64,000 bases of DNA from Minisyncoccota bacterium (GCA_041664205.1 JBAYLF010000005.1:7063-71062), one strand, 5' to 3'. Positions 20,738 through 25,704 are shown, numbered from the stretch's first letter. Translations and numbers: made by a program. Notes: generated by a model from the sequence alone, not told the origin.

Positions 20738-21766
20738 ATGACATATAAAAAAATAATAATATTTTATATTTTCACGATATCAGTATTCTTTAGTTTTTTT
20801 GCTATACGTTTTCCGTATGTTTTTGGAATTCGTGCTGATCAAGGAGCCTCATTGGCAGATTCTTCTTTAGATGTATCTGATGGATCAAGTAATGCAAATA
20901 AATCTGGGAATGATAGTTTATCATCTTATGACGGAAAGCCTCTAACTGTTCTTATTGCAGGCGATGTTATGTTTGATAGATACATAAGAAGAAGCTCTGA
21001 ACAAAGAGGAGGGGACTATATTTTTTCATGCGTGAATTATCTGCTTACAAGTAGCGATATAGCTTTAGCTAATCTTGAGGGTCCGATAACTTCAAACGAT
21101 TCTTTAAGCCGTTCAACTCACGAAGGTGATAATCACAATACAACTTTCACATTTGCTACTTCAACTGCACAACTTTTGATTGAAAATAATATAAAAATTG
21201 TAAGCATAGGCAACAATCATATTTTAAATTTTGGAAAAGATGGTCTTTTAGAAACAAGAAATTGGCTTAATGGCGCAGGGGTAAGATTTTTCGGAGATCC
21301 TTACGATGACAATTATAAAGAGTTTCAAATGATGACAAAAAAGATTTTTTTAACTTTTATTAATTACAACGAGTTCGGAGGCGATAAAAAAGAGCGGGTT
21401 TTAGAAAGAATAAAAGAAGCTTCAAAGCTTGGAGGAATTGTAATTGTTTATACTCATTGGGGAGATGAATATTTACCTGTTCCACCGCGTGTAAAAGATT
21501 TGGCACGTCAGTTTGTTGATGCTGGTGCTGATATTGTTGTTGGCTCGCATCCTCATATTGTGCAGGAAAACGAAACATATAAAGGCAAAAAAATTTATTA
21601 CTCGCTAGGTAATTTTATCTTTGATCAGTATTTTGACGATAATGTTATGGAGGGTTTGACGTTGCGTCTGACAATAAATCAAGATCGATCAATTGATGTT
21701 CAAGAAATTCCAGTTCAGCTCGAAAAAGACGGCAGAACCTGCATTAAAGGCCTGCACACATGGTAA
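20738..21766 (+). CDS. CapA/PGA_cap family metallophosphatase (capsule biosynthesis-like)
   Basis: N-terminal TM. LIAGDVMFDR... and IVSIGNNHILNFG match CapA motifs. Confidence 0.7.
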   Translation: MTYKKIIIFYIFTISVFFSFFAIRFPYVFGIRADQGASLADSSLDVSDGSSNANKSGNDSLSSYDGKPLTVLIAGDVMFDRYIRRSSEQRGGDYIFSCVNYLLTSSDIALANLEGPITSNDSLSRSTHEGDNHNTTFTFATSTAQLLIENNIKIVSIGNNHILNFGKDGLLETRNWLNGAGVRFFGDPYDDNYKEFQMMTKKIFLTFINYNEFGGDKKERVLERIKEASKLGGIVIVYTHWGDEYLPVPPRVKDLARQFVDAGADIVVGSHPHIVQENETYKGKKIYYSLGNFIFDQYFDDNVMEGLTLRLTINQDRSIDVQEIPVQLEKDGRTCIKGLHTW

Positions 21767-21795
21767 TTGAGAACTTTTCAAGGATTAGTGAAGAT

Positions 21796-21960
21796 TAGTG
21801 AATAAGATAGTTTAGCGCTGCGCCTACATAGTAAGGCCAAATAGCTATAGCTAAAACTCCTTGCCAGAAGGATAGTTTTAAAAATCCTATAGTAAATAGC
21901 CATGCTCCTAACCACAAACCTCCTGAAAATACGTTATTTTCGATTTTTATTTTTTCCATA
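21796..21960 (-). CDS. Small two-TM hypothetical protein (54 aa)
   Basis: Minus-strand ORF MEKIKIENNVFSGGLWLGAWLFTIGFLKLSFWQGVLAIAIWPYYVGAALNYLIH. Below the 60-aa ORF-track cutoff. Confidence 0.3.
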
Positions 21961-22029
21961 TAATTGTATTTTAATTAGTTATCTTTAATAAATCAATATT
22001 GTTTTATGCTGAAACTTGATGCGGTCTAA

Positions 22030-23046
22030 TTATTTTAACGAAAAGATTGGCACACTTATTCCTTTTTCATTATGCTGTTTTTGCTTTTCAAAATAATCTT
22101 TAAACTTCGAACTAGCATCACTTAATCTACAAACGCCATGCGAAGACATGAACTTTGGATCTGTGTGCCTGAATTTTTTATGAGTTATCTCATTTTCAGT
22201 AGATGAGAATAACATTTTCTTTTTTGAAAGAATCTTTAGAATAGCTTTGATTTCTGGATTTTTTGTTTTTAAAAGCTTCTTAATAACATGCTGATCATTT
22301 TCAGAAAAGTCAGCCAGATTTATTGTGCCTTCTTTAATAGCGAGCTTTAATGCATGAGAAAATAATTTATATCTTGAGACTGCTTCAAAACCACCCCAAT
22401 GATCTTTTTGTAATTTCAAAAAGTTTGTGGCAAAAATATATGCGGAATTTTTATCTTTAAATATCATTTCATTATTATTATTCATAAGCGATTTGAATAA
22501 TAATTTAGCAACAGGAATAGGTAATTCTCTTAAGGCATAATCAACTCTATCTGCACACAGATCAGGCGGATCTTTCTCAAGTAGCGAGAAATTATGATAA
22601 TTAGATATTATTCTTGAACTGGAGTCGTATTTTTCAAGGATATTTTTTATTTCTTCAGAATTGATTATTTTTTTATGATGATTGTCCTGATATGATTCAC
22701 CGCAAGCTTCGTTGCCGATAACCCAATCTATAATATGAGAAAAAGCGGTATGCGATACATCATGAAGCAAACCCGCAGCTTGTTCCTCAAGAGATCCTCC
22801 AAGTGTTTTTATTAATATCATAACACCCACAGAATGTTCATATCTGCTAAAACTTTTCAGATGATAATATTTGTCTGGAATTCCAAACTGACTTATTTTT
22901 TTTAGACGTTGAACAATTTTCGATTCCAATAATTCAATAAGTAATGGCTCGGTAATTATGTGAGTCCCGTATATTCTATCTTTGATAATAACTTTTTTTT
23001 GCATATACGTTTTGATATTAGTAGGGTAATGTTGTTTAAATTCCAT
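22030..23046 (-). CDS. HD-domain phosphohydrolase of the SAMHD1/dGTPase-like (dNTP triphosphohydrolase) type, 338 aa
   Basis: DRIYGTHIITEPLLIELLESKIVQRLKKISQ...SRYEHSVGV...LLHDVSHTAFSH...ADRVDYALRE parallels the SAMHD1-family pattern DPIHGxI...FQRLRxIxQLG...RFEHSLGV...HDxGHxPFSH...DxxDYxxRD. Confidence 0.6.
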   Translation of the reverse strand: MEFKQHYPTNIKTYMQKKVIIKDRIYGTHIITEPLLIELLESKIVQRLKKISQFGIPDKYYHLKSFSRYEHSVGVMILIKTLGGSLEEQAAGLLHDVSHTAFSHIIDWVIGNEACGESYQDNHHKKIINSEEIKNILEKYDSSSRIISNYHNFSLLEKDPPDLCADRVDYALRELPIPVAKLLFKSLMNNNNEMIFKDKNSAYIFATNFLKLQKDHWGGFEAVSRYKLFSHALKLAIKEGTINLADFSENDQHVIKKLLKTKNPEIKAILKILSKKKMLFSSTENEITHKKFRHTDPKFMSSHGVCRLSDASSKFKDYFEKQKQHNEKGISVPIFSLK

Positions 23047-23302
23047 TTATATCACCGTCCAGAAACCATTTATCTTTAACTCGGACTAATTTGATTGTCT
23101 CTCCAGATGAAGTTCTACAAATGCCGTATTCGTCAGTTTTTTCAACCAGCTGAAAACAGCCTCTGAAATTGTAATAGTTTGTAAATGAACTATGAGCAAT
23201 TTGTAAGGTGTGTATTTGATAGATTCCAGCAGTAAGAAATACAACAGCTAAAACGATAATAAAGCCAATAGTTTTGCCTGTATAAAATTTCCTTAAGTCC
23301 AT
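23036..23302 (-). CDS. Small membrane-anchored hypothetical protein (88 aa). Overlaps the HD gene start by 11 nt.
   Basis: N-terminal TM IGFIIVLAVVFLTAGIY. AGGAG-like SD and an extended -10 (TTTTATAATAT) upstream on the minus strand. Confidence 0.4.
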   Translation of the reverse strand: MDLRKFYTGKTIGFIIVLAVVFLTAGIYQIHTLQIAHSSFTNYYNFRGCFQLVEKTDEYGICRTSSGETIKLVRVKDKWFLDGDINGI

Positions 23303-23370
23303 ATTTGTTATTGTATCACTCCTAGAACTGTTGACAGAAATAACAAAAGTATATTATAAAAAAGTTTAAC

Positions 23371-23892
23371 TTATTTCACTTTTTTGATGCTTTTCGGAAT
23401 GTTATTAAATAGGGTTTTTTCGATCTCTGGATTGGGCCATAAAACTATTTCCAACGGATCAAATTTGTCATCAATATCTAGGATTAGTTTTCTGATTTCA
23501 CCAGAAAGAGTTCTGATATCCTTCGCATCAGCTTTCATTTGTAATCTAGCCATAATATCAGTTAGTAATTTTTTGTCTTTAATCCAAAGAGATATTTCAA
23601 TCGACATCTGATTTAACTCCTCATAAAAATTTATAAGCTCACTTTTATTCAAATAAGTTGACTCATTACCTCTATATTTTATCCATCTTGCAAACAAACG
23701 AGCAATTGTCTCTGCTTTCTGTCGTTGTAATTGTTGGAATTTATACTCTTCTAATTTTCTATCGTATTCATGTTGAATTGATTTTTCCAACCTCGCTGAT
23801 ACCCACTTAGTTAATAGCCATTGAACCAACCCAAGACAAAAGGCAATAATTAAGCTACTTGTTAAAATTTGAATAAATGTAAGTTGAATCAT
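23371..23892 (-). CDS. Single-pass membrane protein with a helical soluble domain (173 aa); partner of the SIR2-like gene
   Basis: TM LTSSLIIAFCLGLVQWLL followed by a charged helical region. 22 nt downstream of the SIR2-like gene on the same strand. Confidence 0.5.
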   Translation of the reverse strand: MIQLTFIQILTSSLIIAFCLGLVQWLLTKWVSARLEKSIQHEYDRKLEEYKFQQLQRQKAETIARLFARWIKYRGNESTYLNKSELINFYEELNQMSIEISLWIKDKKLLTDIMARLQMKADAKDIRTLSGEIRKLILDIDDKFDPLEIVLWPNPEIEKTLFNNIPKSIKKVK

Positions 23893-23914
23893 CTATGTTA
23901 TTTTTTAACTTTAA

Positions 23915-24814
23915 TTAAAAACATTTTTCAATTAGTTCGATACATGTAGAATATACTTTTATCTCTGTTTCTGGCTTGCCATATTCTTCACTTAGAAATT
24001 TAAGTATATCAGCTTTTTTAGATGTATCTTTAATTGTTACATGAATTTCAGATATTTGATTTTCGAAGTTAATTTTACCAAGATTGACTTGTAAACCTCC
24101 TCCTAAACCAAGAAAATACAATTTTATATTTGAAACATAATTGATTTTAAAGATGGAATGGTTTTTGCTATCATGACAAGAGACCATATTTATATATTCT
24201 CTATTATCACTTTTTATGGTATCTGACTGTGTGTATATTTGGGAGATATCATATAGTTCTTCTTTATATGAAATATGACCATGAGGATGAATAGATTGAA
24301 CATTTACTCCGGATAAGTAACTTAGTCTTGGTTTGTGTGTAAGGCGTCTCTCTTTGTCTGATAAATGTCCAAACTTAAGAAAATTTCTATTTAAAACATT
24401 ATCATAATTATAATTTATAAATGCAATCCGGTGTTCCAAACTGTTTTGTGTGTTATGCAGAATTTTCTCGTTTAGCACTTTTATCCAACCATTATTATTA
24501 TCTTTATATCTCTCATTTAAGATATCCTCCATTATTAAAAAGATATGATCTTCTATTTTATCACCATCGGAATGATGTTTAACCGATTCTTTTGCTATAC
24601 ATTCATCAATAGTGTTATATTCTTTATTTTCACCAATTTTATCTATCCAAGCCAAAATTTCTTTATGATATTTATATCGGACTTCTTTATCACTATTAAT
24701 TTTATCTTTGATTAACTGATCCAGTTCTTTCCATGTAGGTAAACCATACTCTACAGAAGCTCCCGCACCCAAAATTAAGAGATGTTCAATTTTGTTATTA
24801 AGTTCAAATCTCAT
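23915..24814 (-). CDS. SIR2-like (SIR2_2 family) putative NAD+-hydrolase domain protein, 299 aa
   Basis: N-terminal LLILGAGASVEYGLPTWKEL matches the SIR2_2 hallmark FLGAGxSxxxGxPxWxxL. INYNYDNVLN resembles the TTNYDxLLE motif. IHPHGHIS resembles the catalytic KxHG(S) motif. Starts 38 nt downstream of the tRNA 3' end. Confidence 0.6.
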   Translation of the reverse strand: MRFELNNKIEHLLILGAGASVEYGLPTWKELDQLIKDKINSDKEVRYKYHKEILAWIDKIGENKEYNTIDECIAKESVKHHSDGDKIEDHIFLIMEDILNERYKDNNNGWIKVLNEKILHNTQNSLEHRIAFINYNYDNVLNRNFLKFGHLSDKERRLTHKPRLSYLSGVNVQSIHPHGHISYKEELYDISQIYTQSDTIKSDNREYINMVSCHDSKNHSIFKINYVSNIKLYFLGLGGGLQVNLGKINFENQISEIHVTIKDTSKKADILKFLSEEYGKPETEIKVYSTCIELIEKCF

Positions 24815-24852
24815 TTTATTTTATTAGCTTAACTCTTTAGTTATTCGAATTT

Positions 24853-24925
24853 AGCTCAACTCGGCTGCGGGTCAGGGACTCGAACCCCAATTAATCGCTC
24901 CAGAGGCGATCGTCCTACCATTAGA
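24853..24925 (-). tRNA. tRNA-Gln (anticodon CUG). CC of the CCA end is encoded, the A is not.
   Basis: Manual cloverleaf: acceptor TGCGGGT/ACCCGCA (U1-A72, G73 discriminator); D arm GTCT-AATGGTA-GGAC; anticodon stem ATCGC/GCGAT with loop CU-CUG-GA; T loop TTCGAGT. Confidence 0.7.
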
Positions 24926-25062
24926 CGAACCCGCAATATACTTAAAATACTTTAAATTCGGTAATTATTCAAGTAAAACCATTTGTGAGATTTTTTTAAT
25001 TAAAACTCTAATATGATAATATATTTAAAAGGTATCTTATAAATTACTAATTAAAAATTATT

Positions 25063-25704
25063 ATGGAAAAATCATTAGATTCAGAATTAAATCATAAAGA
25101 AGGAGAAAATGAAGAAGAAGTTATTAACTTAGAAGAAAATACTAAAATTTTGGAAGAAATAAAAAGAGGGGATTTTGATCATGTGAACGAATTAACTTCT
25201 CTTGGTAATGATAATGAAATAGCTGAACTTCTTTCAAAACACGAAGGCCCTCTTTATCTTGGAGGTCTTAAATCTATCACTGATGGGCAAGCAGAACTTT
25301 TATCAAAACATGAGGAAGGTCTTTATGAAAGAAAACTTCTTCCACGCCAAGGCGGACTTGATCTTTCTGGGCTTGAATTTATAAACGACATGCAAGCAGA
25401 GTTTTTATCAAAACATGAAGGCGATCTTGATCTTTCAGGACTTAAATCTATTACCGACGAACAGGCGCAGTCTTTTTCAAATCGCAGAGGTGGTTGTCTT
25501 TACCTTGACGGGCTTGATTCTATTACTGATGAGCAAGCCAAGTCTTTAGGATCAAGATCTAATTATTCAGTTTCTCTTAAAGGTCTTGCTTCTATTAATG
25601 ATGAACAAGCAGAGCATCTTTCAAAAATTACTGACCTGACTGTCTCAAAAGAAGTTATTGAACTTATTGTTAGTAAAAAAAATAAAAAACCTCGGGAAAT
25701 ATAA
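25063..25704 (+). CDS. Acidic tandem-repeat protein (213 aa) with about 22-aa repeats L.GL.SITDEQAE.LSKHEG
   Basis: Six or more degenerate 22-aa repeats, mirrored by 66-nt DNA repeats at about 25225-25640. Confidence 0.55.
   Translation: MEKSLDSELNHKEGENEEEVINLEENTKILEEIKRGDFDHVNELTSLGNDNEIAELLSKHEGPLYLGGLKSITDGQAELLSKHEEGLYERKLLPRQGGLDLSGLEFINDMQAEFLSKHEGDLDLSGLKSITDEQAQSFSNRRGGCLYLDGLDSITDEQAKSLGSRSNYSVSLKGLASINDEQAEHLSKITDLTVSKEVIELIVSKKNKKPREI

What the first reader, a model, noticed from the sequence alone, without database searches (positions are those of the whole stretch)
22030..24925. tRNA-Gln-adjacent four-gene block: SIR2_2-like NADase + TM protein + small TM protein + SAMHD1/dGTPase-like HD enzyme. 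Candidate undescribed defence island.
A 4-gene minus-strand block sits directly 3' of a tRNA-Gln(CUG), a classic island insertion site. It is flanked by housekeeping genes: capA on one side, hppA and a repeat protein on the other. Two of its four proteins belong to families repeatedly recruited to anti-phage systems. SIR2_2-like domains cause NAD+ depletion in Thoeris, DSR and SIR2-HerA. SAMHD1-like dGTPases cause dNTP depletion. Each enzyme is paired with a membrane protein. I know of no described system with the architecture SIR2-only + 1-TM helical protein + small TM + 338-aa dNTPase-like HD. The block may be two 2-gene modules. A 68-nt gap with its own extended -10/SD separates them at 23303-23370.
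Basis: partly seen in the sequence, partly recalled or inferred. Interest (0 to 1): 0.78.

Follow-up and report, generated by a model that had tools for sequence, protein, structure and literature searches.

The report
Lone SIR2-like gene beside tRNA-Gln
The four genes next to this tRNA are real, but they are not one defence system: only the first, a divergent stand-alone SIR2-type NAD-using enzyme, is a plausible immunity gene, and the HD enzyme is a common enzyme of this bacterial group, probably housekeeping.

Summary
The window comes from a Patescibacteria (CPR, Paceibacterota) genome.

The "four-gene system" does not hold. In about 60 loci with SIR2-like homologues, none carries the 173-aa, 88-aa or HD gene nearby. 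HD homologues (>3,500 clusters, CPR-wide) and 173-aa homologues sit in unrelated contexts.

What recurs is position. The SIR2-like gene lies just 3' of a same-strand tRNA (mostly Gln or Asn) in 13 of 38 loci. The 173-aa gene is the usual 3' neighbour of tRNA-Gln(CTG). So the SIR2-like gene occupies a slot between that tRNA and its normal neighbour. A GNAT gene fills the same slot in another genome, and relatives show duplicated tRNA 3' ends there.

Verdict: a new small family of stand-alone immune-type SIR2 ("sirim") enzymes in a tRNA-proximal variable slot. A defence role is plausible but unproven. Interest is moderate to low.

The parts
24863..24935 (-). tRNA-Gln(CTG) gene. It heads the gene string; the SIR2-like ORF starts 48 nt after its 3' end.
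   Evidence: ARAGORN; Rfam tRNA, 56 bits. The trailer after the tRNA is homologous to those in L006 and L114.
25016..25043 (-). Promoter-like match (TTTATA-16-TATTAT) upstream of the tRNA. Candidate start of a tRNA-mRNA co-transcript (inferred only).
   Evidence: Matches of this quality occur at chance frequency in this region.
23915..24814 (-). 299-aa stand-alone SIR2-like ('sirim'-type) protein, the only defence-like gene of the block. Motifs: GAGAS at residues 16-20 (24755-24769), N136-Y-D138 (24401-24409), H178-G179 (24278-24283).
23371..23892 (-). 173-aa protein with an N-terminal TM helix continuing into a long stalk helix, plus a small helical bundle. CPR-specific family. It is the usual 3' neighbour of tRNA-Gln(CTG) and not a SIR2 partner.
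23036..23302 (-). 88-aa ORF with one N-terminal hydrophobic helix. Orphan, function unknown.
   Evidence: No Pfam, PADLOC, NCBIfam or PHROG hit. No tblastn hit at E<0.1 in the 107 loci held at that point.
22030..23004 (-). HD phosphohydrolase of the COG1078 / SAMHD1-EF1143 type (324 aa from M15; the ORF extends to 23046). Widespread CPR enzyme, judged housekeeping. Metal ligands in 324-aa numbering: H57, H81-D82, D152/D155.
   Evidence: Pfam HD E 1.9e-8. Profile vs PDB: 2hek full length E 2.4e-16, EF1143 1.5e-14, SAMHD1 1e-10. 3,529 homologous clusters. Invariant residues. Unrelated contexts in L105-L107, L122 and L123.
21795..21959 (-). 54-aa hydrophobic small ORF that closes the same-strand gene string.
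   Evidence: Weak PHROG hit only.

Best explanation
The block is not one system. It is a string of unrelated genes lying 3' of tRNA-Gln(CTG) in a Paceibacterota genome.

The region just after this tRNA is a variable slot. In other CPR genomes the tRNA is followed directly by the 173-aa membrane-anchored helical protein. Here a single extra gene, the 299-aa SIR2-like protein, sits between the two. Whether it was gained here or lost elsewhere is not resolved.

That protein is a minimal, stand-alone member of the immune-type SIR2 ('SIR2_2/sirim') superfamily. It belongs to a small CPR-centred family that Pfam does not cover.

Inferred mechanism: it binds NAD+ in the Rossmann pocket (GAGxS) and cleaves the nicotinamide-ribose bond using the conserved Asn136/Asp138 and His178. 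It acts as an NADase, or possibly as an ADP-ribosyltransferase. By analogy with ThsA, KomC, SIR2-HerA and FAM118B, activity is probably switched on by oligomerisation or filament formation in response to an unknown cue. The most likely role is abortive-infection-type defence.

It is probably transcribed together with the tRNA.

The HD enzyme downstream is a widely conserved CPR phosphohydrolase of the SAMHD1/EF1143 type. It most likely works in nucleotide-pool housekeeping and has no link to the SIR2-like gene.

Shown: gene positions, the folds, the motifs, the lack of conserved pairing, and the tRNA adjacency. Inferred: NADase chemistry, the trigger, the defence role and co-transcription.
For: SIR2 fold and motifs:
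- The model is confident.
- The Foldseek top hits are SIR2-HerA, SPARSA, DSR2, KomC and ThsA.
- The family profile aligns GAGxS..LPxW, NYD and HG to KomC. KomC's catalytic H146 falls opposite H178.
- G16/A17/G18/S20, N136/Y137/D138 and G179 are invariant; H178 is >=90% conserved.
- Distant ~300-aa relatives reach Pfam SIR2_2 at or above its cut-off.
- The model has more than 7 strands and lacks a Cys4 site. This fits the 'sirim' side of the split described in bioRxiv 10.1101/2024.09.18.613514.

Not a system:
- tblastn finds no HD, 88-aa or 173-aa homologue in any SIR2-like locus.
- Neighbours of the SIR2-like gene are highly variable.
- HD homologues at 62-65% identity lie in five different contexts.
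- 173-aa homologues lie without SIR2 or HD.

tRNA slot:
- A same-strand tRNA lies within 400 nt upstream in 13 of 38 SIR2-like loci. The naive binomial P is ~1e-17, ignoring shared ancestry.
- tRNA-Gln(CTG) directly precedes the 173-aa gene in L114-L116 and L118. In L117 a GNAT gene sits in the slot.
- The post-tRNA trailer is homologous whichever gene follows.
- Duplicated tRNA 3' ends occur in L006, L014 and L111/L112.
- Only 3 nt separate the tRNA from the ATG in L013.

Defence flavour:
- Some homologues lie beside an EcoRI-type methylase, GmrSD-HNH, or MazG-like plus Schlafen-type helicase plus HNH genes.
- Distribution is sporadic: 40 clusters at E<=1e-30 among 1.84 billion representatives.
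Against: No enzymatic or phage data exist.

Defence-type neighbours appear in only about 4 of 24 loci. Many neighbours are housekeeping genes such as FtsEX, CTP synthase, RuvB and AlaRS.

The family shows partial synteny with ftsE-ftsX(-capA) in L005, L006, L013 and L016. Its divergence is similar to that of FtsX. This looks like stable vertical inheritance, not a mobile island.

A stand-alone 300-aa SIR2 without a sensor or partner has no validated precedent that I know of, so its regulation is unexplained.

Two family members carry Asn in place of His178.

Three invariant cysteines (C72, C213, C291) are unexplained.

No relatives were found in IMG/VR viral contigs. The window itself has no att repeats and no integrase.

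The housekeeping role of the HD enzyme is inferred from breadth and context, not measured.
Confidence: 0.6

Rival explanations
1. The four genes, or two 2-gene modules (SIR2+TM and TM+HD), form a new anti-phage island that depletes NAD+ and dNTPs and was inserted at tRNA-Gln.
For: All four genes are co-oriented and tightly spaced behind a tRNA. The SIR2 and SAMHD1-type HD folds are confirmed. Both folds are used in known defence systems (established knowledge).
Against: Neither pair nor the block recurs in about 75 related loci. The only other occurrences are the same organism (L108, L109). The HD protein has no PADLOC hit and belongs to a family found across CPR lineages. The 173-aa gene is the native neighbour of tRNA-Gln(CTG). 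No integrase or att repeat is present and GC content is not distinctive.
Confidence: 0.05
2. The SIR2-like enzyme is functionally tied to the tRNA it follows. For example it might carry out an NAD-dependent modification or ADP-ribosylation of tRNA-Gln/tRNA-Asn, or of the machinery that charges them. The adjacency would then reflect an operon and not an insertion site.
For: The tRNA is always on the same strand. 11 of the 13 adjacent tRNAs in the related loci are Gln or Asn (12 of 14 counting the window), and these are the two tRNAs served by the indirect transamidation pathway. Gaps are as short as 3-33 nt, which forces co-transcription. The arrangement persists across lineages whose proteins are only 40-50% identical.
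Against: tRNA-Trp and tRNA-Ser also occur. About two thirds of loci have no adjacent tRNA. The unrelated 173-aa and GNAT genes occupy the same slot. Duplicated tRNA 3' ends point to integration or recombination at the tRNA. The closest structures are NADases, not RNA enzymes. Shared ancestry inflates the Gln/Asn count.
Confidence: 0.1
3. The 299-aa protein is a housekeeping NAD-dependent enzyme of some CPR lineages, such as a protein deacylase or ADP-ribosyltransferase that regulates metabolism. It would then be unrelated to phage defence.
Against: The best structural matches are the immune-type SIR2s. There is no Cys4 zinc module, which is typical of deacylating sirtuins (bioRxiv 10.1101/2024.09.18.613514). 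Distribution is very sporadic. Some loci lie in restriction/Schlafen-type neighbourhoods.
Confidence: 0.2

Closest known systems
SIR2 subunit of SIR2-HerA (Nezha) systems, e.g. PsSIR2, PDB 8w9l
   Different: No HerA ATPase lies next to the window gene or any homologue examined. Sequence identity is only ~15%. Pfam SIR2_2 is not matched directly.
KomC (Kongming) and ThsA (Thoeris) SIR2 NADases; human FAM118B
   Different: KomC needs KomA/KomB. ThsA carries a SLOG sensor domain and needs ThsB. No such partners or domains are present here. No activating signal is known.
DSR1/DSR2 single-gene SIR2 defence proteins
   Same: Single-gene SIR2-based defence. The SIR2 domains are matched by Foldseek.
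   Different: DSR proteins are ~1,000 aa with a large C-terminal sensor. This protein is the bare 299-aa catalytic domain.
COG1078 HD phosphohydrolases: Aquifex Aq_1910 (2hek), E. faecalis EF1143, SAMHD1
   Same: The HD family profile aligns over the full length to 2hek (E 2.4e-16). Its N-terminal half aligns to EF1143 and SAMHD1. H..HD..D metal ligands and the HDxxHxxFSH and DRxDY motifs are conserved.
   Different: It is shorter (about 320 aa against 450-630). The allosteric and regulatory regions of SAMHD1/EF1143 are not matched. dNTPase activity is untested. It does not hit the PADLOC defence models, and the NCBIfam dGTPase model is matched only at 16.8 bits against a 494-bit cut-off.
tRNA-targeted genomic islands / integrative elements
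   Same: The variable genes lie immediately 3' of tRNA genes. Relatives show direct repeats of the tRNA 3' end (L006, L014, L111).
   Different: No integrase was seen. The segments between repeats are only 80-150 nt. The accessory gene lies outside the last repeat. The window itself has no repeat. The same gene keeps this position across distant lineages.

Membership tests
SIR2 superfamily, immune-type branch (Pfam SIR2_2 / 'sirim') | Rossmann-type SIR2 fold | tested here: met
SIR2 superfamily, immune-type branch (Pfam SIR2_2 / 'sirim') | NAD-binding GAGxS motif, catalytic Asn/Asp (NxD) and catalytic His | tested here: met
   G16-A-G-A-S20 and N136-Y-D138 are invariant; H178 is >=90% conserved. 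These motifs align to KomC, including its catalytic H146.
SIR2 superfamily, immune-type branch (Pfam SIR2_2 / 'sirim') | Match to the Pfam SIR2_2 (PF13289) model at or above the gathering score | tested here: not met
   No Pfam hit at E<=1 for the window protein. Only distant relatives of the family reach the model: P0372 28.6 bits, P0392 29.3 bits, and P0412 24.5 bits, exactly the 24.5-bit cut-off.
SIR2 superfamily, immune-type branch (Pfam SIR2_2 / 'sirim') | No Cys4 zinc module and seven or more beta strands (criteria of bioRxiv 10.1101/2024.09.18.613514) | tested here: met
   About 10 strands in the model. Only three invariant Cys, widely spaced. Criteria read.
SIR2 superfamily, immune-type branch (Pfam SIR2_2 / 'sirim') | NAD+ hydrolase activity | not testable with these tools
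   Needs biochemistry.
SIR2-HerA (Nezha) | Adjacent HerA-type ATPase gene | tested here: not met
   None found among neighbours in the window. None appears among the 25 most frequent Pfam families of 150 neighbour ORFs of homologues (only those 25 of 125 families were listed) or in the neighbours scanned individually.
Thoeris | ThsA SLOG/Macro sensor domain and a ThsB TIR partner | tested here: not met
   The protein is a single domain of 299 aa. No TIR protein appears among the window's neighbour genes or the Pfam families listed for the neighbours of homologues.
DSR1/DSR2 | About 1,000-aa protein with a C-terminal sensor region | tested here: not met
   Nearly all full-length family members are about 290-320 aa; one is 356 aa.
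SAMHD1/EF1143-type HD dNTP triphosphohydrolases (COG1078) | HD domain with H..HD..D metal ligands and the HDxxHxxFSH / DRxDY motifs | tested here: met
   Pfam HD. Invariant H57, H81, D82(>=90%), H85, F88, S89, H90, D152, R153, D155, Y156. Alignments to 2hek, EF1143 and SAMHD1.
SAMHD1/EF1143-type HD dNTP triphosphohydrolases (COG1078) | dNTP triphosphohydrolase activity with allosteric nucleotide sites | not testable with these tools
   The allosteric-site regions of SAMHD1 are not covered by the alignments. Activity needs an assay.
Anti-phage dGTPase / dNTP-depletion defence genes | Match to defence dGTPase models and location in defence islands | tested here: not met
   No PADLOC hit at E<=1. 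NCBIfam dGTPase 16.8 bits against a 494-bit cut-off. Neighbours in five other genomes are housekeeping types.
tRNA-integrated genomic island | Integrase gene and direct repeat of the tRNA 3' end bounding the island | tested here: not met
   No repeat of the tRNA 3' end in window 21700-25200. No integrase among the window's called genes +-10 kb.
tRNA-integrated genomic island | Block absent next to the same tRNA in relatives | tested here: met
   In L114/L115, L116 and L118, tRNA-Gln(CTG) is followed directly by the 173-aa gene without the SIR2-like gene. None of these loci has the 88-aa or HD genes there.
tRNA-integrated genomic island | Atypical base composition | tested here: inconclusive
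   GC is 0.295-0.307 against a window mean of about 0.34. Other parts of the window are equally low.

The most novel reading that the evidence does not exclude
In Patescibacteria the 3' flank of tRNA genes, above all tRNA-Gln(CTG), may act as a dedicated gene-capture and expression slot. Single ORFs (SIR2-like, GNAT, 173-aa) are placed a few nucleotides after the tRNA and expressed from the tRNA transcript, possibly as near-leaderless mRNAs released by tRNA processing. Turnover at the slot would be driven by a so far undescribed family of 80-150-nt structured mini-elements. Each carries an inverted and a direct copy of the host tRNA's 3' end around a conserved GGGGUCG...GUGACCG hairpin. The SIR2-like family would be one cargo of this system.
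Probability: 0.15. Interest if true: 0.7.

Novelty: new member of a known kind. Interest (0 to 1): 0.35.

Why it matters
CPR/Patescibacteria have tiny genomes and live attached to host cells, and little is known about their immunity. A minimal 299-aa SIR2 enzyme with no partner would be one of the simplest NAD-based effectors known. It raises the question of how such an enzyme is kept off.

The family is invisible to Pfam and barely visible to PADLOC, so current defence-annotation pipelines would miss it.

The negative result matters as well. Two defence-associated folds lying close together behind a tRNA is not enough to call a system. The HD enzyme here is a common CPR enzyme.

The repeated use of the tRNA-Gln 3' flank by unrelated genes, and the tRNA-end-mimicking mini-elements in relatives, may point to how these reduced genomes gain and express accessory genes.

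Tried and rejected
- Direct Pfam, NCBIfam and PHROG assignment of the 299-, 173- and 88-aa proteins gave nothing usable.
- Single-sequence PDB search with the 299-aa protein found only a chance hit.
- I looked for a recurrent partner gene of the SIR2-like family by all-against-all clustering of neighbours in 24 loci, and by Pfam/PADLOC scans of 150 neighbour ORFs. No partner emerged, only scattered restriction- or Schlafen-type genes.
- I looked for HerA next to the distant ~300-350-aa relatives and found none.
- I looked for att-type repeats, terminators and above-chance promoters in the window block and found none.
- Rfam search of the window and of eight loci carrying the structured inter-tRNA segments found tRNAs only.
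- A scan of IMG/VR for the mini-element motif gave three hits, all chance matches in regions without a tRNA gene and, in the two read, without the tRNA-like arms.
- IMG/VR scans for relatives of the SIR2-like and 173-aa families found none.
- The fold search for the 173-aa protein gave only generic helical bundles.
- I considered that the conserved Cys72/213/291 form a metal site. This could not be tested because the model coordinates are not exposed.
Full report
**1. What is in the sequence**

The window is a low-GC (about 0.34) Patescibacteria genome. The 299-aa protein is identical to NCBI [quoted passage not shown], and the same locus lies on a 218-kb contig.

ARAGORN and Rfam find a single tRNA in the whole window: tRNA-Gln(CTG) at 24863-24935 on the minus strand. 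Directly 3' of it, on the same strand, lie:
- a 299-aa ORF (23915-24814), 48 nt after the tRNA
- a 173-aa ORF (23371-23892), after a 22-nt gap
- an 88-aa ORF (23036-23302), after a 68-nt gap
- a 338-aa ORF (22030-23046)
- a 54-aa ORF (21795-21959)

These come, and the same genes are called in public annotations.

The flanks are capA/PGA_cap, ftsX, ftsE and a release factor on one side. On the other side are a 213-aa repeat protein without Pfam hits and an H+-pyrophosphatase.

Two corrections apply. First, the HD protein most likely starts at Met15 (23004, 324 aa), as in NCBI and in homologues of 316-332 aa. With that start it does not overlap the 88-aa ORF. Second, the promoter-like match in the 68-nt gap exists (23337-23310), but such matches are at chance level here (20 found, 20.3 expected).

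**2. The 299-aa protein is a SIR2-fold enzyme of the immune type, in a family of its own**

Pfam, NCBIfam and PHROGs give nothing. PADLOC gives weak hits to two "SIR2" models over residues 12-141 (E 3.9e-6 and 3e-4).

A database search found 124 homologues, nearly all 290-320 aa. The named ones are all Patescibacteria: Paceibacterota, Minisyncoccia, Magasanikbacteria, Kaiserbacteria and Gracilibacteria.

In an alignment of 39 of them the invariant residues include G16-A-G-x-S20, N136-Y-D138, G179 (H178 >=90%), T68/D70/C72/E76, S212/C213 and C291.

An AlphaFold2 model built on this alignment is confident (pLDDT 92.6, pTM 0.91).
- Foldseek gives the same families: SIR2-HerA, SPARSA, DSR2, KomC, ThsA.
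- The family profile reaches KomC by sequence alone (E 1e-4). It aligns GAGxS..LPxW, NYD and the His-Gly motif, with KomC's catalytic H146 opposite H178.

A full HMM scan of 1.84 billion representative proteins finds only 40 clusters at E<=1e-30. About 1,350 weaker relatives follow, mostly about 300 aa. Several of these reach the Pfam SIR2_2 model at or above its cut-off, which links the family to SIR2_2 by transitivity.

The model has about ten strands and no Cys4 zinc module. These are the features a recent preprint uses to separate immune "sirims" from deacylating sirtuins (bioRxiv 10.1101/2024.09.18.613514).

**3. The HD protein is a widespread CPR enzyme**

Pfam HD matches at E 1.9e-8. 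A profile of 35 homologues aligns over the full length to Aquifex 2hek (E 2.4e-16). Its N-terminal half aligns to EF1143 (1.5e-14), 2q14 and SAMHD1 (1e-10). The metal ligands and the HDxxHxxFSH and DRxDY motifs are invariant. "SAMHD1-like HD" is therefore correct at superfamily level. dNTPase activity is only inferred.

The family is very large: 3,529 clusters at E<=0.001. The top 120 are all 314-336 aa and 45-100% identical (the 100% hit is the window's own protein), and come from many CPR lineages. It has no PADLOC hit. Against the NCBIfam dGTPase model it scores 16.8 bits against a 494-bit cut-off.

Five homologues at 62-65% identity lie in five different neighbourhoods. None has an 88-aa TM gene, a SIR2 gene or capA nearby. 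Recurrent neighbours are NUDIX (L105, L122) and DUF3850/ASCH (L122, L123). I read this as a nucleotide-housekeeping enzyme.

**4. The four genes are not a conserved unit**

I fetched 45 loci from GTDB species genomes and 59 from metagenomes that encode relatives of the 299-aa protein. tblastn with the HD, 88-aa, 173-aa, 54-aa and 213-aa proteins finds none of them in any of these loci, even at E<1. All-against-all clustering of neighbours in 24 loci shows no recurrent partner.

The 173-aa protein has its own CPR family: 60 clusters at 42-100% identity, the 100% hit being the window's own protein. Its members lie without SIR2 or HD genes. Its model is one long helix (TM plus stalk) and a small helical bundle with no informative structural match.

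Apart from the same organism (L108, L109), the window is the only place where the SIR2-like and 173-aa genes meet.

**5. What is conserved is the position behind a tRNA**

In 13 of 38 SIR2-like loci with enough upstream sequence, a tRNA gene lies within 400 nt upstream, always on the same strand. These are Gln(CTG) x4, Gln(TTG) x3, Asn(GTT) x4, Trp x1 and Ser x1. Five more loci have tRNA-Gln 0.7-4.3 kb upstream. A naive binomial test gives P about 1e-17, but shared ancestry makes this an overstatement.

Independently, the 173-aa gene follows tRNA-Gln(CTG) at 21-158 nt in L114/L115, L116 and L118. It follows tRNA-Pro in L110 and tRNA-Ser in L111/L112. In L117 a GNAT acetyltransferase ORF starts about 3 nt after tRNA-Gln(CTG) and the 173-aa gene comes next.

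The roughly 40-nt trailer after the tRNA is homologous in the window (followed by the SIR2-like gene), in L006 (SIR2-like gene) and in L114 (173-aa gene). The simplest reading is this: tRNA-Gln(CTG) followed by the 173-aa gene is the common arrangement, and the SIR2-like gene in the window occupies a slot between them. Whether by gain here or loss elsewhere cannot be decided.

In L013 only 3 nt separate the tRNA from the SIR2-like start codon. At least there the mRNA must be made from the tRNA transcript.

Relatives also show signs of recombination at the tRNA. Exact or near-exact extra copies of the tRNA 3' end lie between the tRNA and the accessory gene in L006, L014 (two copies) and L111/L112. 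The window has no such repeat, no integrase within 10 kb, and no distinctive GC content.

In L005, L006, L013 and L016 the tRNA-Gln/SIR2-like pair lies near ftsE-ftsX(-capA), as in the window. The SIR2-like identity (40-48%) is close to that of FtsX (45-51%). This suggests long vertical residence in that clade and not recent transfer.

**6. Is it a defence gene?**

For:
- The closest folds are all NAD-depleting defence effectors.
- The distribution is sporadic and crosses phyla. Full-length homologues at 26-28% identity occur in Poribacteria and in a Woesearchaeote.
- Some homologues lie beside an EcoRI-type methylase (L003, L020), a GmrSD-HNH enzyme (L020), or MazG-like plus Schlafen-type helicase (plus HNH) genes (L009, L017).

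Against:
- Most neighbours are ordinary genes.
- There is no sensor or partner.
- Nothing was found in viral contigs.
- There are no experimental data.

I put the defence role at roughly even odds. The NAD-cleaving chemistry is considerably more likely than that.

**7. Comparison with known systems**

The protein works most like the SIR2 effectors of SIR2-HerA, Kongming, Thoeris and FAM118B. It fails the membership tests for each of those systems: no HerA, no KomA/B, no SLOG or ThsB, and no long DSR sensor region. Distant ~310-350-aa relatives are also stand-alone and lack HerA.

The protein is best filed as a new small family within the SIR2_2/sirim superfamily.

The HD enzyme is an ordinary member of the COG1078 group. 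The tRNA-proximal placement resembles tRNA-targeted islands but lacks their defining integrase and bounding repeats in this window.

**8. Verdict**

Novelty: a new member of a known kind (a stand-alone sirim-type SIR2 family in CPR).

Interest is moderate to low, at 0.35. The most unusual lead is the recurring tRNA 3' slot and the structured tRNA-end-mimicking mini-elements in relatives. These lie outside the window and were only partly followed up.

Noticed in passing
L006:4708-4865; L004:9815-9945; L055:106-275; L111:5836-5975 (also L112, L113); partial copy in L118:3843-3990: A shared 80-170-nt structured segment lies between a tRNA gene and the next ORF in several CPR genomes. It consists of a terminator-like hairpin, an inverted copy of the host tRNA's T-arm/3' end, a conserved GGGGTCG...(variable hairpin)...GTGACCG core, and then a direct copy of the host tRNA 3' end. 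It occurs after tRNA-Gln(TTG), tRNA-Gln(CTG), tRNA-Trp and tRNA-Ser, with arms matching each tRNA. There is no Rfam family for it. It may be a miniature tRNA-targeting insertion element or an att remnant.
   Followed up: partly
L013:9086-9092; L117:3457-3462: ORFs start only 2-3 nt after the 3' end of tRNA-Gln(CTG): the SIR2-like gene in L013 and a GNAT acetyltransferase in L117. This leaves no room for a promoter or ribosome-binding site. It implies tRNA-mRNA co-transcripts and possibly near-leaderless mRNAs released by tRNA processing.
   Followed up: partly
window 23371-23892; L114, L115, L116, L117, L118: The 173-aa membrane-anchored helical protein forms a well-conserved CPR-only family (60 clusters, up to 85% identity). 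It is repeatedly the gene next to tRNA-Gln(CTG). Its function is unknown and no structural analogue was found.
   Followed up: partly
L014:9757-10000: Two extra copies of the last 16 nt of tRNA-Gln(TTG) lie in tandem, 85 and 67 nt apart, between the intact tRNA and the SIR2-like gene. This looks like repeated integration or excision events at this tRNA.
   Followed up: no
L065:408-508: A second tRNA-like sequence of 101 nt (Rfam tRNA, 49 bits; not called by ARAGORN) lies between tRNA-Asn and the SIR2-like gene. It may be a tRNA with an insertion or a pseudogene.
   Followed up: no
window 21795-21959 (minus strand): A 54-aa very hydrophobic ORF follows the HD gene on the same strand and is called as a gene in public annotations. 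It has a weak PHROG hit only.
   Followed up: no
window 25063-25704 (plus strand): The 213-aa protein has about five internal repeats of the type LSKHEG.L.L.GL.SITDEQA. It has no Pfam hit and no PHROG hit, and no homologue in the fetched loci.
   Followed up: no
L020:7220-9306, with homologues in L021, L023, L024 (Poribacteria) and L022 (Woesearchaeota): Full-length homologues of the SIR2-like protein (26-28% identity, 340-350 aa) occur outside CPR. In L020 the gene lies directly after an EcoRI-type adenine methylase and a GmrSD-HNH restriction enzyme. This suggests horizontal spread within defence-type neighbourhoods.
   Followed up: partly
proteins P0108 and P0117 (alignment A1, position of H178): Two family members have Asn in place of the presumed catalytic His (PNG instead of PHG). 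They are possibly inactive or regulatory variants.
   Followed up: no
L105, L122, L123 (HD homologue loci): The CPR HD phosphohydrolase repeatedly lies next to NUDIX hydrolases and small DUF3850/ASCH proteins, and once next to a phosphoribosyltransferase and a HAD hydrolase. This hints at a nucleotide-sanitation gene set.
   Followed up: no
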